Program-made: the position numbers and the translations under genes
Source of the DNA: Amphiscolops sp. MND2022
Lineage: Eukaryota
Direction of reading: 5' to 3'
DNA: 64,000 nucleotides
Assembly: GCA_964187785.1 (NCBI GenBank)
Contig: OZ076409.1
Coordinates: 52,268,001 to 52,332,000, forward strand
Notes under the pieces: generated by a model
Told to the model about the DNA's origin: nothing
Seen by the model: the letters and a program-made list of their open reading frames with translations, nothing else
The model's database searches: none
Shown: piece by piece, positions 25,401 to 37,400 of the stretch
Position numbering within the stretch: the first letter of the stretch is position 1
Layout: every line of letters begins with the position of its first letter

Positions 25401-28400
25401 TTGATAGTTTCAAACCGAAAGTTTTATTCTCAGCGAGCTGTCATAGTGGAAGTGGTAGGGCGTTGAATTTTCAGATTGTTAAAAACGAAAGATTTTTTTG
25501 AGTATTTCTGATTTCCGATTGCTATACAGTTTTCTGGTTTCGGCGTTATCGTGCAATTGATATTAGGTAATTTTACTTGATCATTGGAAGCCGCTATTAG
25601 GTTCAAAAAGACTTTAGGTAGCTACTCTAGGTAGTATGAGGCAGCACTTTAGTAGCAGGACTTCGAAGGATAGAATGTTATGCGAAGCTCGGCGAGGGAA
25701 GGCCGTTTTTCTTTTGCTTTTGAAGAAAAAATCTCATGCCCCAAATGATCTATTTGTCAATCAATTTCTTCAGAGGTGCCAGTAAATTTAGGCATTCCGT
25801 AATTTTTTCAATGAAGTGAGATAATTTATCCTCTGTGCGATGGATGTCTTGTGTAGATTCGATCAAGATACTTTTGCTGTAAGAGGTTTGTGAATTTTTC
25901 TCTGGAATTGTCGGACTTGTCTCGATCGTTATTTTATTTGATTCGCATTTTACATCAGGTGTTATGCTTTTATGCGAGTAATAGCAGTGATAATTTGGTG
26001 GTCGGTGCTTAAAATAATGTGGCTGACTTCTCTGGTTTTTCGTATTATTATTATTATTATTATTATTATTATTATTATTATTATTATTATTATTATTATT
26101 ATTATATTTATACTACTCTCTATGGCAAAAAATCGATAATTATACTACTCTCAATAGCACCACAAATACTCTCTGTGGTTCCAGTGAATTTTCGATGAAG
26201 TCAAATACTGCAAAGAAGCAATAATTAATTACTACAAAAGCCCAAAAACGCTTTCACCAATAGCAAGAACAACTTTTCATATTTTTCTGTTCGAGTCATG
26301 ACGTTTTAAAACGGTTTTCAGACGCCCAAACATTTTCGATGTACCTTTTGTGAACTATCAGACTCGCTATGTCTAGCAAGCGGAACTGTCGGACGCGAAT
26401 TGTAAACAAAATGGGAACACAAAATCGAACTAAACTCTCATTGGCTAATCGATATATCGTTGAAAGCAACTTCTCTCAACACTATTCCGATCGTGTGGTG
26501 GCCGTACAAGCTTGATATGCATCTACAAATATTATTAGACTCTCAGTGTAGAAAATTGAATTTAGGTTTATTATAAGACTTCCGTTGGGTAAATTGAAGT
26601 TACTATTGGAATTTTGTTGGCAAAGGTGATGAGTTTCCAATTACTCAAATCATCTTTTACTTTCAAATTGATAGCTGAAACTTCAGCGATAGCTACAAAT
26701 TATTATAGCCAAATATAATTCTGCCCAAATTATAACTAAACTGTTTCAAACTTCGTAACTGACAAAGCCAACAATAGCTTCAAAGAAATTGTTTATAAAA
26801 AGTTGAACTTCAATATTTTCAATTGAGCCAAAAATTGACATTTTATCTCTATTGTCTGCTTTTGTGAGTTCAAATTTCAATAACGCAATAATTCCCCAAC
26901 CTGATTTTTTGAGTTTTCGAGAACGAGTATCGAGTTTTTTGATGAATTTCATTCTTTTTTGCGCAAAGTGACCAAACTTATCTTCTAGTTCATTTTGCGA
27001 TTTCAGTCTCGTTTCGACGATATTGGGTAATTTCGTTGCATGGGGAGGTTGATACACGGTGTCTAAGTCAGTTGCCACAGCTCTAGAAGTTCGTTTTTGA
27101 TTTAGGTCTATGTTTTCAGCTTTTTTCGTCTTTTTTTTATTTCTATTGAAAATGTCTTGGTTCTCCTCAGAATTCTTTGACAACAAAACAATAGGCTGCA
27201 GATCTATTGAGGCGCTTCGAGATGAATGTTTGTTGTCTCAGATGCATATCTGACGCGTTTCTGCAAAAAAACACACTTTCCCGAGTTGACAAAAGTAATA
27301 TAACGACGTTTTTTGTGAAATTTTGGACTATATAATTTCGGCATAAACACCAAACTGCTGATGTATTCCAGCTAGTTCGAGCAAATAAAAGCGTCAATGA
27401 TGTATATAATAAAACTCCCTAACTGAGGAATTTATCACAGCTTTCTAATCAGTAATTTGCTTGCGACAGTTTCTAGAAATCAACCGTCAAAGTATCTTCA
27501 GATTTGTAGCTAATGCCACTGTGTGTCTCATAAATATTGATCAGCACAAAAACCGAAAAACTGATTTTTCCTAACAATTCGAGAAAATAAAAGCGCCAAT
27601 GATGTAGTATAATGAAGCTCCTCAATTGGGAAATTTATCACAGCGTTCTATCAGTAGATTGCTTGCGACAGTTTCTAGAAATCAACCGCAGCTACTGCCA
27701 CAGTGTGTCTAATAAAAATTGATCAGCACAAAAACCGAAATGTGATTATTTTCCAACATTTCGAGAAAATAAAAGCCCCATTGATGTAGTATAATGAAGC
27801 TCCTGATTTGAGAAATTTATCACAGCGTTCGTTCAATAGTTTGTTTGCGACAGTTTATAGAAATCGGGGGTCAAAGTTTGCTCAGATTTGTTGCTTATGC
27901 CACTGGAAGTCTAATAAAAAATTGATCATAATAAAAGTCATAAAGTGACAATACTTCATTTTGAGCCAGTCGATCAGTCTGGTTTTTTGAACAGGGTCTC
28001 ACTGAGTTGTGGGAAATCATTTTCAATGATTGTTTTTTAGGATTTGTTCCGGATTCTGAGAACAAAAACAATTTTTCCTTTTTAGTTCTTTCCTCACGAT
28101 TTCGATATTAAGTTTTTGAGGTTAAATTTTATTTGTTTGCTTGCTTTGTGGAAATAATTGGTGGTATCGAATGGAAAGTCATTTCAACGTTCAACTCAAT
28201 GGGATGAAAGGTGTCATCTGAACCCTCTTCGTTAACGATTTTAGTCCCAGTTTTGTCATCAGCACACCAACCTAAGCGCTTCTGCCATGGGAAGTCCTAT
28301 TGAAATTGATGTTGGTGTTGTGAGTAATTATGATCGAATCACTATTTTGATCAAATTTGTTTCAAAACGCTTGAAGAAGTTTAAATATACAACTGTTATG

Positions 28401-34400: not shown

Positions 34401-37400
34401 TTATTATTATTATTATTATTATTATTATTATTATGGATTTAGCATCAATGCAAGGGATGAGTATTTGTCCCTAGATATAAAAGTTAAAATGAGATATAAG
34501 TTAACTTATTTCTACAGTTATTCAGTGTACAGTCACAGAAGAGTTTCCAAGTACATGGCGATTCAGAGTTGAAGTACTGTTGAAAGTAATTCCAGCTGTA
34601 TTTCAACAACCTTTGCTTCAGGCCGTCTGTCTTCAGGAACTGTATTTCGGGTGGCATAAGATTGACAAGACGAGCTGTTCGAAACCAAAAATTTTGCCGG
34701 CATTGCTCGAGTCTTGGTATATGTACCTTGAAAATATTACTGGTATTCCGTGCCATTGACAGGTTGGGATTGATTGTGTAGTGCTCTGATAAGTCACAGT
34801 CGTAGTACCCAACAACGATTTTGTGTAATAGGAGAATGTCTGTAATTTGCATATATAGATGAAGTGGTAAAATATTGAGCTTTATGAGTGCTGAGCGGTA
34901 GTTTTCTTCAGGAAGAATCCATTTGACAACTGATGTCTGGAAATGCTCAAGTTTTCGTGCTTGGGTGACATTGGCAGCCAAACAATGGGAACCATAGAGT
35001 AAAATAGGCAACATCATACTTTTGTATAAATTCAGCTTCGCTATGGTGGTGAGCATTGGCGAGTTTCGTCGAACCATTTGGTATACTTTCCGAGCCTTTC
35101 CAACTGCGGTAGTTATGTGCCCATTCCAATTTAAATTCTCCGTGATAAGTATTCCAAGGTCCTTTTGTTGGTTTGCTGTTGGAATTGTATCACCATTAAA
35201 CATGAGATTATGATTGTACGTGCTTCTCCCAAATGTTATTGCTGCACATTTTTTGACATTAAAAGGCTGACAGTTTACCTCACTCCAATTGTATATATTG
35301 TTCATATCTGCTTGAAAATCGTTGCTGTTCAATTCCATTCCTATGAATTTGGAATCGTCGGCTGCCAATAGAGGGATGATGAATATGCATTCATCTGGCA
35401 AATCATTGATGTATATCAAAAAAAAATATAGACGCCAAGATTGCTCCTTGGGGCACGCCACTAGATGCTTTGATGGGTTTAGATAGGCTGTCATTTACCC
35501 TGACTTGTTGTTGTCGACCAAGGATATACGACTTCATTAATTTGAAGAGTTTTCCTCTTATCCCAGTGCAGTAAAGCTTTTTCAATAGTATTCCATGGTC
35601 GACCCTGTCGAAGGCCTTTTCAAAATCTGTGTAGACGACTGTTACTTCTTTGTTCTCATCTAGCGATTTGTATACGATGTCCAAGTATTTTAGCAGTTGC
35701 ACTGTCATTGATCTTTGTTTCCGGAATCCATATTGTGAGTTATGGAACCAAGATCTATAGTGCTCATATAGGTCCATAAAAACACATTTGTCGAAAATTT
35801 TCGACACTACATGTAGAAGTGACACTGGACGGTAATTGGACACATCTTCTTTATTACCTTTTTTGAATATGGGGCTAATATGCGCTGTTTTCCAATGGCA
35901 AGGGTATTGAGCAGTTTGAAGTATTTTGGAGAACAGCTGATTCAGGGAATGTGAAATCGTTGCCGCTGTTTTCTTGAAGACAATTGGTGGCAGGTTATCA
36001 GGTCCTCGTGATTTCTTTTCGTCTAGGTTAAGGCAAATGCCAACAATACGGTCAGTAGAGAAATCCAAGTTATTAATAACTGGTAACACCGAGAAATCTG
36101 GGGCTGAAGACTCGTCGAAAGTTGTTGATTGTATGTATACAGATTGGAAAAATAGGTATAAGGTAGTCAATTAGTGTTTCGGTTGTTCTACTATGTCTTG
36201 TTGGGCTTCTTCGTAGACAAGATACTAGACCGTAGAGTTCGAATTGTTTCAATGTTCTTTTTCTCTTTCTTGCACGTACCTTTCATTGATCATATGTTTT
36301 TAGTCAGCGCTTTTCCGTTGAGGAAAAAAGTCAGACTATTGCATTGTGCACTTTTACCATAAGTACGTAGTACTTGATTTGGAAATCATCCAAAGCGTCT
36401 AACATGAAAGACAAAACCATTCCAAAGCAAAAACCATTCCTTTTTCCACTTTTTTCGGCACTATGAAACTGTTCAACATTCTCATTCTCTGTCTGATATT
36501 AGGTTTACTTAATATGTATGCAATAATTCTTTTCGATACTATCCGAATTTTTGACATATCCGAAGTAAATTGCGTTTCACTGAAGAGGAGGTGGAGGTTC
36601 GGAAGTATTGCAATAGTAAGTATTAGGGAAGAAATTCAGAAATCTTTGCAAAATAATAGATTTTAAAAAGATTTTCAAACTACTGTTACCGATTGATTTT
36701 TTGCGATTGTATGTATTGTTTGAATTTAATGTAGGGTCGTGTATCTGGTAAACCACTTCATAGGCATTTGATGTTGACAATATTCAACCACTTAAATAAC
36801 GCGTTGTTCGATCTAGAATTACAAGGTTTCTGGATTGTTTTCTGAGTCATGCACTGTTTTTGTAGTACAAAGTCATACGTAAAGGTTGACTTCATTTAAA
36901 TTCAAGAAGTTTTTTCAAGAAGTAAATTTTTTGTAAGTTGGCGAGCTCGGAAGTTGCAGAAGCGGGAAATATCGAAGGTTGCCGCGTCTTTGACATTTTT
37001 TTGAAATGCCCGTTGAACATTGGCTCCGTGTGACAGTACCGGTCTACAGCTGTCCCAGGGAGGCAATATTCAACATGCAGGTAAGAATAAAATTTTTAGT
37101 ACTAGCATCTACAGTGCGCACTGGTAGTAACGACTAAAGGAATTGTATAACCGGCATATTTCAATCGAAGCACATATTGTGTAAGCCGGTTCTAACGTGA
37201 TTGATTTTTGTACACCGTGTGATAATCTCGGTCTATACGGTAAAAAGGGTCTTTACTGTAGAAGAATAAACTGTATCTTCTTTCTCAACTAAACTTCAGT
37301 ATCTAATCAAGTATAATGGTCACTATCTATTGTACAATACAATAACACAAATTGACAGCATTTAGAGTTCTATGTTGGTAAGCAATAATGGTCTCTCTGT

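What the first reader, a model, noticed from the sequence alone, without database searches (positions are those of the whole stretch)
26043..34432. Three ~2.63-kb units stacked in the (TAA)n tail of a LINE: candidate microsatellite-targeting mobile element
Seen: four (ATT)n arrays of different length bracket three head-to-tail units with the same junctions each time (ATT|atatttatactactctctatggc ... gccatagaagaaataattg|TTA). The left flank is unique and the right array is the 3' tail of the LINE at 34433-36172. Copies differ at scattered sites, some shared by copies 2 and 3 (tacgtaatgg vs tacacattga; ccaact vs ccaatt), so they are not a simple read duplication. Inference: either a non-autonomous element that inserts repeatedly into (TAA)n, exploiting LINE tails, or unequal recombination between two ATT arrays that triplicated the DNA between them. 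No transposase or recombinase is visible in the unit.
Basis: partly seen in the sequence, partly recalled or inferred. Interest (0 to 1): 0.75.

Follow-up and report, generated by a model that had tools for sequence, protein, structure and literature searches.

The report
Recombinase-derived transposon stacked in TAA repeats
Three near-identical 2.6-kb copies of a decayed jumping gene, carrying the broken remains of a Cre-like DNA recombinase gene, sit between TAA repeats at the tail of a retrotransposon, likely because intact relatives of that recombinase insert such elements into TAA repeats, a known but little-studied strategy.

Summary
In detail: three 2.63-kb units, 99.0-99.4% identical, with identical junctions, lie between four (ATT)n arrays at a LINE's 3' tail, inside one 16.6-kb intron of a phosphatidylinositol-transfer-protein gene. 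Its minus-strand ORF is the decayed C-terminal end (stop codon in exact register) of a multi-copy ~747-aa protein family with a tyrosine-recombinase fold and invariant R-K-(N)xxR-H-Y residues. The internal 182-205-bp repeats likely derive from the stretch around the predicted catalytic arginine. Relatives of the decayed ORF (95-97%, 72%, 48% identity) are encoded on other public contigs, so the unit belongs to a repeat family. Its two ends form imperfect 11-bp inverted arms (9/11) beside a 7-bp spacer, like a recombinase site (p about 0.02). Best reading: a non-autonomous tyrosine-recombinase DNA transposon that integrates into (TAA)n and works like the microsatellite-targeting CryptonV. Untested: flanks of dispersed copies (no genome, reads or contigs reachable), CryptonV membership, and whether copies 2-3 came from repeated integration or unequal exchange.

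The parts
26043..26104 (.). (ATT)n array 1, about 21 triplets; its last 7 bases (26098-26104) are the predicted left spacer
26105..28729 (-). Element copy 1, arm to arm (2625 bp); the gene remnant is on the minus strand
26105..26115 (+). Left 11-bp arm, followed by a 9-bp sub-terminal inverted repeat (26119-26127) and two more degenerate copies of the end motif up to about 26180
26746..27323 (-). Decayed 3' end of a tyrosine-recombinase gene (about aa 555-747 of P0017). Stop codon in the same register as intact family members; one frameshift and one stop upstream in this copy
27374..27962 (-). Three internal sub-repeats (202, 182, 205 bp; 74-86% alike), likely a triplicated piece of the recombinase gene (aa 361-407, around predicted catalytic Arg395)
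28496..28532 (+). Weak inverted mimic of the junction that the two ends would form in a circle; the four clustered copy-1 differences fall in its middle
   Evidence: (post hoc, modest)
28714..28736 (+). Right end: 9-bp sub-terminal inverted repeat (28714-28722), 11-bp arm (28719-28729) and 7-bp spacer (28730-28736) that differs from the array by one base
28730..28811 (.). (ATT)n array 2, about 27 triplets
28812..31436 (-). Element copy 2 (gene remnant 29453-30030; sub-repeats 30081-30669)
31437..31698 (.). (ATT)n array 3, about 87 triplets, interrupted in register at 31647-31652
31699..34324 (-). Element copy 3 (gene remnant 32340-32918, in one frame from aa 555 with one internal stop; sub-repeats 32969-33557)
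34325..34433 (.). (ATT)n array 4, about 36 triplets, the part of the TAA tail still attached to the LINE
34434..36170 (-). 5'-truncated, frameshifted LINE (reverse transcriptase and C-terminal region) whose TAA tail is the target; its 5' end is approximate
23353..39978 (+). Host intron (GT...AG, 16,626 bp) of a phosphatidylinositol transfer protein gene that holds the whole locus; no exon maps inside the unit

Best explanation
The 2.6-kb unit is a deleted, decayed derivative of a tyrosine-recombinase gene family, and it was likely excised as a circle and integrated into the LINE's (TAA)n tail by an intact relative acting in trans, likely more than once. Shown: recombinase ancestry of the unit, the recombinase fold of the intact family, relatives on other contigs, and position in the TAA tail within an intron. 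Inferred: the circle, the 11-7-11 arm-spacer-arm site formed by the joined ends, strand exchange in a 7-bp spacer that matches the array at 6 of 7 bases, mobilisation in trans, and repeated integration. Each integration would split the array and leave fresh target on both sides, so copies stack head to tail, all in one orientation; slippage would then change the array lengths. My odds: recombinase-derived non-autonomous element 0.9; (TAA)n is its true target 0.75; copies 2-3 by repeated integration and not unequal exchange about 0.55.
For: The unit ORF hits P0015 among 1.84 billion representatives (E=3e-5; 5 hits in all), and P0015 leads to six 659-758-aa proteins (6 of 1722 candidates). A family profile scores 35.6 bits on the unit against a maximum of 1.2 in 252 null frames. 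tblastn gives 30-31% identity over aa 555-718 in copy 3 and hits nowhere else in the window. The stop codon is in exact register with 5 of the 5 full-ended members compared. Sub-repeat c aligns to aa 361-407 (score 42, maximum 32 in 40 shuffles), and the best hits of all three sub-repeats start at aa 361; the pieces are collinear with the gene. The model matches XerH, XerA, Cre and Tn1549 integrase (Z 9.4-10.6; XerH rmsd 5.8 over 260 residues; model residues about 219-530), and the top viral hits are integrases and VLF-1. R395, K422, N493, R496, H524 and Y533 are invariant in 22 of 22 distinct sequences. The family is multi-copy and young: clusters of 12, 6 and 11 members, full-length ones about 99% identical, one sequence on 23 contigs. 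Relatives of the decayed ORF occur on other contigs at 95, 97, 72 and 48%. Ends: 9-bp sub-terminal inverted repeat (p=0.007); 9/11 arms around a 7-bp spacer (p=0.015-0.028). Recombinase sites are described as two 11-13-bp inverted repeats with a 6-8-bp spacer (PMC3212892, passage). Some CryptonV families insert into microsatellites (PMC8869645, passage). No single crossover point explains the middle copy (runs p=0.27), and the differences are patchy (13 of 26 events in 500 bp, p=0.012).
Against: No flank of any dispersed copy or intact element was seen: no genome is held, no runs were listed, and the collection scans gave nothing or only chance matches. It is not shown that P0011-P0014 or P0017-P0048 come from the same species or genome as the window. 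The remnant is only about 30% identical to the intact families, so none of them is shown to be the mobilising partner. The end-site statistics are modest and post hoc. Sub-repeats a and b do not beat their shuffles alone, and no N-terminal remnant rose above null. The three copies are closer to each other than to P0011 (6 of 112 residues differ), and copies 1 and 2 share two likely derived states (unit positions 1028 and 1556), which fits local duplication. Unequal branch lengths (13, 4, 12) are only marginal (p=0.049, 0.18 if the cluster is one event). The model is weak overall (mean pLDDT 63.5; residues 523-534 around the predicted catalytic tyrosine below 50), and no Foldseek PDB hit reaches E<=0.001.
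Confidence: 0.6

Rival explanations
1. One recombinase-mediated insertion into the TAA tail, then local multiplication to three by unequal exchange or gene conversion through the flanking ATT arrays or the unit. The element's nature is the same; only the stacking differs.
For: The copies are within 0.6-1% of each other and closer than the nearest dispersed relative. Two likely derived states are shared by neighbours 1 and 2. Tandem dimers are known to expand by unequal exchange (PMC5932611, passages).
Against: No single switch point in the middle copy. Branch lengths 13, 4, 12 fit a clock poorly, though only marginally so. 4 of 5 sites polarised by the sub-repeats are private.
Confidence: 0.27
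2. The element is recombinase-derived but not microsatellite-specific: it landed in an AT-rich spot by chance, or carries or seeds ATT at its own ends.
For: Only one locus was seen. Cryptons generally use short microhomologies (PMC3212892, PMC13465315, passages).
Against: These are the only long ATT arrays in 64 kb. One is clearly the LINE tail. The spacer matches the array at 6 of 7 bases.
Confidence: 0.06
3. The copy number is an assembly artefact: diverged haplotypes or paralogous loci were stitched together through the ATT arrays.
For: Long low-complexity arrays invite mis-joins, and no reads could be examined.
Against: Three distinct versions, differing mostly by transitions (20 of 28) with one indel; the flanking host intron is continuous.
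Confidence: 0.05
4. A Helentron-type non-autonomous rolling-circle element (HINE) that captured a recombinase fragment and was copied in tandem.
For: Central tandem repeats, short sub-terminal inverted repeats and T-rich flanks are HINE traits (PMC4067079, PMC7492417, passages).
Against: The sub-terminal repeat is 9 bp, not 11-15. There is no significant end hairpin on either strand. The central repeats map to the recombinase gene. The copies are separated by long arrays.
Confidence: 0.02

Closest known systems
[quoted passage not shown]
   Same: Recombinase-only DNA element, inserted in a microsatellite, with no long terminal repeats.
   Different: The TAA target, the asparagine at the HxxR histidine position, the 11-7-11 end site and the triple stacking were not found described in the passages read.
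CryptonA/I/F/S (PMC3212892; Glomhopper, PMC13465315)
   Same: Single recombinase gene, proposed circular intermediate, short direct repeats at the ends, abundant non-autonomous derivatives.
   Different: No DUF3504 or GCR1_C Pfam match in 6 of 6 family proteins. This family has an N-terminal zinc-finger-like region and an extra C-terminal helical domain. Animal CryptonA/I are reported without terminal repeats or target specificity.
Telomere-repeat-targeting tyrosine recombinases of endogenous nimaviruses (PMC10871703)
   Same: Recombinase with C2H2 zinc-finger and SAM-like domains, insertion into a simple repeat, and end-to-end copies across a repeat tract.
   Different: Those are 278-580-kb viral genomes in (TAACC)n. 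This is a 2.6-kb non-coding element in (TAA)n with no viral gene. No nimavirus recombinase appeared among the 50 viral fold hits listed, which does not exclude kinship.
Tandem transposons formed by double insertion at one target, then unequal exchange (PMC5932611)
   Same: Head-to-tail copies separated by target sequence.
   Different: Described for DDE and non-LTR elements with fixed target duplications. Here the spacer is a variable microsatellite and the enzyme is a recombinase.

Membership tests
Tyrosine recombinase superfamily (parent protein family P0017-P0048) | Core-binding plus catalytic domain fold of Cre/Xer/lambda Int | tested here: met
   Z 10.6 to XerH (rmsd 5.8, 260 aligned), 9.8 to Cre (rmsd 5.1, 261 aligned); the top 30 rows are all recombinases or integrases
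Tyrosine recombinase superfamily (parent protein family P0017-P0048) | Catalytic R-K-HxxR-H/W-Y residues | tested here: inconclusive
   R395, K422, R496, H524 and Y533 are invariant in 22 of 22, but the HxxR histidine position holds Asn. Assignment is by motif order; the region around Y533 is low-confidence in the model.
Crypton (broad: recombinase-only DNA transposon) | Encodes or derives from a tyrosine recombinase, with no reverse transcriptase | tested here: met
   Recombinase remnant; no reverse transcriptase or other Pfam family above cut-off in six frames of the unit
Crypton (broad: recombinase-only DNA transposon) | No long terminal inverted or direct repeats; short direct repeat at both ends | tested here: met
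   Longest perfect inverted repeat between the terminal 40 bases is 9 bp; a 7-bp spacer repeated with one mismatch flanks each copy
Crypton (broad: recombinase-only DNA transposon) | Dispersed copies with defined ends, and empty sites | tested here: inconclusive
   Related ORFs on other contigs, but their flanks could not be read
Crypton (broad: recombinase-only DNA transposon) | Circular intermediate | not testable with these tools
   No reads available
CryptonA / CryptonI (DUF3504 group) | Recombinase matches DUF3504 | tested here: not met
   No DUF3504 match at E<=1 for P0015 or P0017-P0022
CryptonV | Recombinase groups with CryptonV sequences | not testable with these tools
   No CryptonV sequence reachable; 3 papers mention the name, none of the passages read gives a sequence
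CryptonV | Specific insertion into microsatellites | tested here: inconclusive
   Met at this one locus (3 of 3 copies); no second locus seen
Helentron non-autonomous elements (HINE / DINE-1) | 11-15-bp sub-terminal inverted repeats | tested here: not met
   9 bp
Helentron non-autonomous elements (HINE / DINE-1) | Stem-loop within about 35 bp of the 3' end | tested here: not met
   No significant fold at either end: best z -1.99 among 5 folds, best -1.3 in 18 sliding windows on both strands
Helentron non-autonomous elements (HINE / DINE-1) | Central tandem repeats | tested here: met
   Three sub-repeats, though they map to the recombinase gene
DIRS-type recombinase retrotransposons | Reverse transcriptase/RNase H, long inverted or split direct repeats, near-perfect internal complementary region | tested here: not met
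   No RT, no long terminal repeats, only a weak gapped junction mimic
PIF/Harbinger MITE (TWA target duplication; features recalled) | Terminal inverted repeats at the very ends and a DDE transposase | tested here: not met
   The inverted repeat is sub-terminal and offset, and the remnant is a recombinase

The most novel reading that the evidence does not exclude
An unclassified, currently active animal tyrosine-recombinase lineage (zinc finger, Cre-like core with Asn in place of the HxxR histidine, extra C-terminal domain) reads a plain (TAA)n microsatellite as its attachment site through a loxP-like 11-7-11 end. It regenerates its own target at each integration and so builds integron-like stacks of gene-less cassettes in LINE tails, possibly guided by an internal mirror copy of the circle junction.
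Probability: 0.3. Interest if true: 0.72.

Novelty: new member of a known kind. Interest (0 to 1): 0.52.

Why it matters
Microsatellite-targeting recombinase transposons of animals appeared in my searches only as a one-line citation of a Repbase report. This locus links three things: a candidate target (TAA)n, candidate end sites, and intact, near-identical multi-copy recombinase genes. Together they allow a simple excision and integration assay, so the circle model proposed for Cryptons could be tested in an animal element. It also shows how LINE tails may seed nested arrays that inflate introns: the stack is half of this 16.6-kb intron. The concept itself is not new.

Tried and rejected
No whole genome is held. 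No sequencing run was listed for the unit, which does not mean none exists; no reads were laid. End-motif scans: 0 loci in metagenomes with the ATT flank; without it, 9 metagenome, 0 viral and 3 prokaryote-genome loci, all 12 chance matches with no similarity beyond the motif and no long ATT array. The family alignment found no relative in viral contigs (64 pattern matches, none confirmed), and P0017 found none in phage records. A Pfam six-frame scan of the unit, the word-index protein search and the Atlas all missed the remnant; only the full HMMER scan found it. Pfam, NCBIfam, PHROGs and PDB-sequence searches do not name the parent family (weak Phage_int_SAM_1, E=0.028). The Pfam scan of 258 of 267 ORFs outside the unit (5 more; 4 overlapping the arrays left out) therefore cannot exclude a partner, but tblastn over the window found only the three units. 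No convincing target-site duplication for the LINE (at most 5 bases near its end). Rfam gave one chance hit. No long terminal hairpin. P0016, listed in P0014's cluster, is an unrelated membrane-like protein and was dropped. The host group was not identified: the nearest PITP relatives are unnamed, and a recalled guess (acoel) gave no useful paper and stays untested. The Kojima 2020 review is not held. Ten literature searches showed no description of this family; subscription journals and Repbase are not covered. No supplements were read.
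Full report
Observation. The structure is as reported. Three units (26104-28733, 28811-31440, 31698-34328) differ at 29 of 2631 columns: 13 sites separate copy 1, 4 separate copy 2 and 12 separate copy 3. Twenty of the 28 substitutions are transitions, so the differences look like real mutations. Four ATT arrays of about 21, 27, 87 and 36 triplets bracket the units. They are the only such arrays in the window, and the unit has no other match in it. 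The last array is the TAA tail of a truncated minus-strand LINE. The whole stack lies in one 16,626-bp intron of a phosphatidylinositol transfer protein gene, and no exon falls in the unit. The host is an intron-rich eukaryote, probably an animal (inference from its repeat content); it was not identified.

What the unit is. Pfam in six frames, a word-index search and the Atlas found nothing. The exhaustive HMMER scan of the 163-aa minus-strand ORF gave 5 hits in 1.84 billion proteins. Four are short relatives of the decayed ORF itself on ENA contigs of 27-177 kb: P0011 (106 of 112 identical), P0014 (30 of 31), P0012 (47 of 65) and P0013 (48%). The fifth, P0015, leads to a family of 659-758-aa proteins, P0017-P0022. 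A profile of 22 distinct members scores 35.6 bits on the unit, against at most 1.2 in 252 null frames. The match covers about aa 555-747 and ends at a stop codon in the same register as in the five members compared. The three internal 182-205-bp sub-repeats (74-86% alike) all give their best alignment from aa 361. Only sub-repeat c beats its shuffles (42 against a maximum of 32 in 40; aa 361-407), and no N-terminal remnant was detectable. So the unit is likely an internally deleted, partly triplicated, decayed copy of this gene with its flanks.

The parent family. The predicted structure (mean pLDDT 63.5) matches tyrosine recombinases over residues about 219-530: XerH Z 10.6, XerA 10.0, Cre 9.8, Tn1549 integrase 9.4. 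Foldseek lists the same proteins, though none at E<=0.001 in the PDB, and viral integrases and VLF-1. The Atlas neighbours of P0015 are unnamed eukaryotic clusters, then phage-integrase and telomere-resolvase clusters. R395, K422, N493, R496, H524 and Y533 are invariant in 22 of 22 sequences. By motif order (established knowledge) these are the catalytic set, with Asn replacing the HxxR histidine. Clusters hold 12, 6 and 11 members; the full-length ones are about 99% identical, and one sequence sits on 23 contigs, as expected of a recently active transposon. It is not shown that these contigs are from the window's species. At about 30% identity to the remnant, these are relatives of the parent, not proven partners.

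The ends. There are no long terminal repeats. A 9-bp inverted repeat lies just inside each end (p=0.007 against 20,000 random draws), and the motif recurs near both ends. Joining the ends in the register that restores a perfect array gives 11-bp inverted arms matching at 9 of 11 around a 7-bp spacer (58 and 87 of 4000 random joins, and 2.8% of shuffled ends, do as well). In the genome each copy reads array-ATTATTA-arm on the left and arm-ATTGTTA-array on the right. Tyrosine-recombinase sites are described as 11-13-bp inverted repeats around 6-8 bp (PMC3212892, passage). This is supportive but modest and post hoc. A gapped inverted mimic of that junction lies at 28496-28532 (score 36-37 against maxima of 31 in 44 background pieces and 31-32 in 100 shuffles, for the short core only). 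No long hairpin was found.

Mechanism. Shown: recombinase ancestry, fold, repeat-family status and position in the TAA tail. Inferred: an intact family member binds the arms, excises a circle and recombines its spacer with ATTATTA in an array. The array is split, so new target remains on both sides and later copies can land beside the first, in the same orientation. Integration of a concatemer is disfavoured, because the junctions hold 27 and 87 triplets and not one spacer (inference). Repeated integration versus unequal exchange is unresolved. For repeated integration: no single switch point (runs p=0.27), patchy differences (p=0.012) and uneven branches (p=0.049-0.18), and 4 of 5 polarised sites private. 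For local duplication: the copies are closer to each other than to P0011, and copies 1 and 2 share two likely derived states, one of them a homopolymer indel that is weak evidence.

Comparison. It works like CryptonV, some families of which insert specifically into microsatellites (PMC8869645, passage citing a 2012 Repbase report that I could not read). Membership is untested for lack of sequences. It is not in the DUF3504 CryptonA/I group by Pfam. Nimavirus recombinases share the zinc-finger plus SAM-like layout and simple-repeat targeting (PMC10871703, section 10 and passages), but belong to giant viruses. HINE, DIRS and Harbinger readings fail defining features (see Membership tests). Papers seen: PMC3212892 (abstract, sections 5 and 8, passages); PMC10871703 (section 10, passages); PMC8869645, PMC4455052, PMC5753468, PMC13465315, PMC5932611, PMC7492417, PMC4067079 and PMC9940879 (passages only; the last was not relevant). 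No supplements were read.

Limits and verdict. The test that matters most, the flanks of dispersed and intact copies, could not be run: no genome, no runs listed, and only chance matches in the collections. Verdict: a real feature and a new family of a known kind, a non-autonomous tyrosine-recombinase DNA transposon, likely (TAA)n-targeting. Interest is moderate (0.52), mainly because intact multi-copy enzymes and candidate sites make the mechanism testable.

Noticed in passing
window 31647-31652: Two altered triplets interrupt the longest ATT array in register; this could be a mutation, a read error or a recombination scar.
   Followed up: no
window 28518-28524 (copy 1) versus copies 2 and 3: Four substitutions within 7 bases. 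Each version completes a different short palindrome (suggesting a template switch), and the spot is the centre of the junction mimic.
   Followed up: partly
window 22573-46530 (+): Phosphatidylinositol transfer protein gene with two introns of about 70 bp beside a 16.6-kb transposon-filled intron; homologues P0001 and P0006 are 86-92% identical over the largest exon.
   Followed up: partly
window 43111-44448 and 48450-49686 (-): Two broken hAT-like transposase remnants (BED zinc finger, E=3e-5, in the second; the hAT label is recalled from motifs).
   Followed up: no
window 8599-11627 (-): A second, older LINE with endonuclease-like and reverse transcriptase pieces; no long TAA tail.
   Followed up: no
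window 51938-54771 and 60260-64000 (+): Gypsy-like LTR retrotransposon remnants, including a ~2-kb tandem duplication (60260-61902 versus 62274-63864, 90% identical).
   Followed up: no
window 19421-21576: Repeat with direct and inverted pieces (19421-19984 versus 21019-21576 at 93%; inverted 87-110-bp parts between), possibly a rearranged small element.
   Followed up: no
window 37215-37455 and 39577-39817: 241-bp direct repeats (95%) around Gypsy-like fragments, likely the LTRs of a deleted 2.6-kb element in the same intron.
   Followed up: no
window 1193-1264: 72-bp near-perfect palindrome (92%).
   Followed up: no
proteins P0041 and P0042; P0029 and P0035: Equal longest-contig lengths (23,651 and 270,748) suggest two recombinase copies, or two families, on one contig, hinting that intact elements may cluster too.
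   Followed up: partly
protein P0016: An unrelated 550-aa membrane-like protein is clustered with the 31-aa P0014; likely a clustering quirk.
   Followed up: yes
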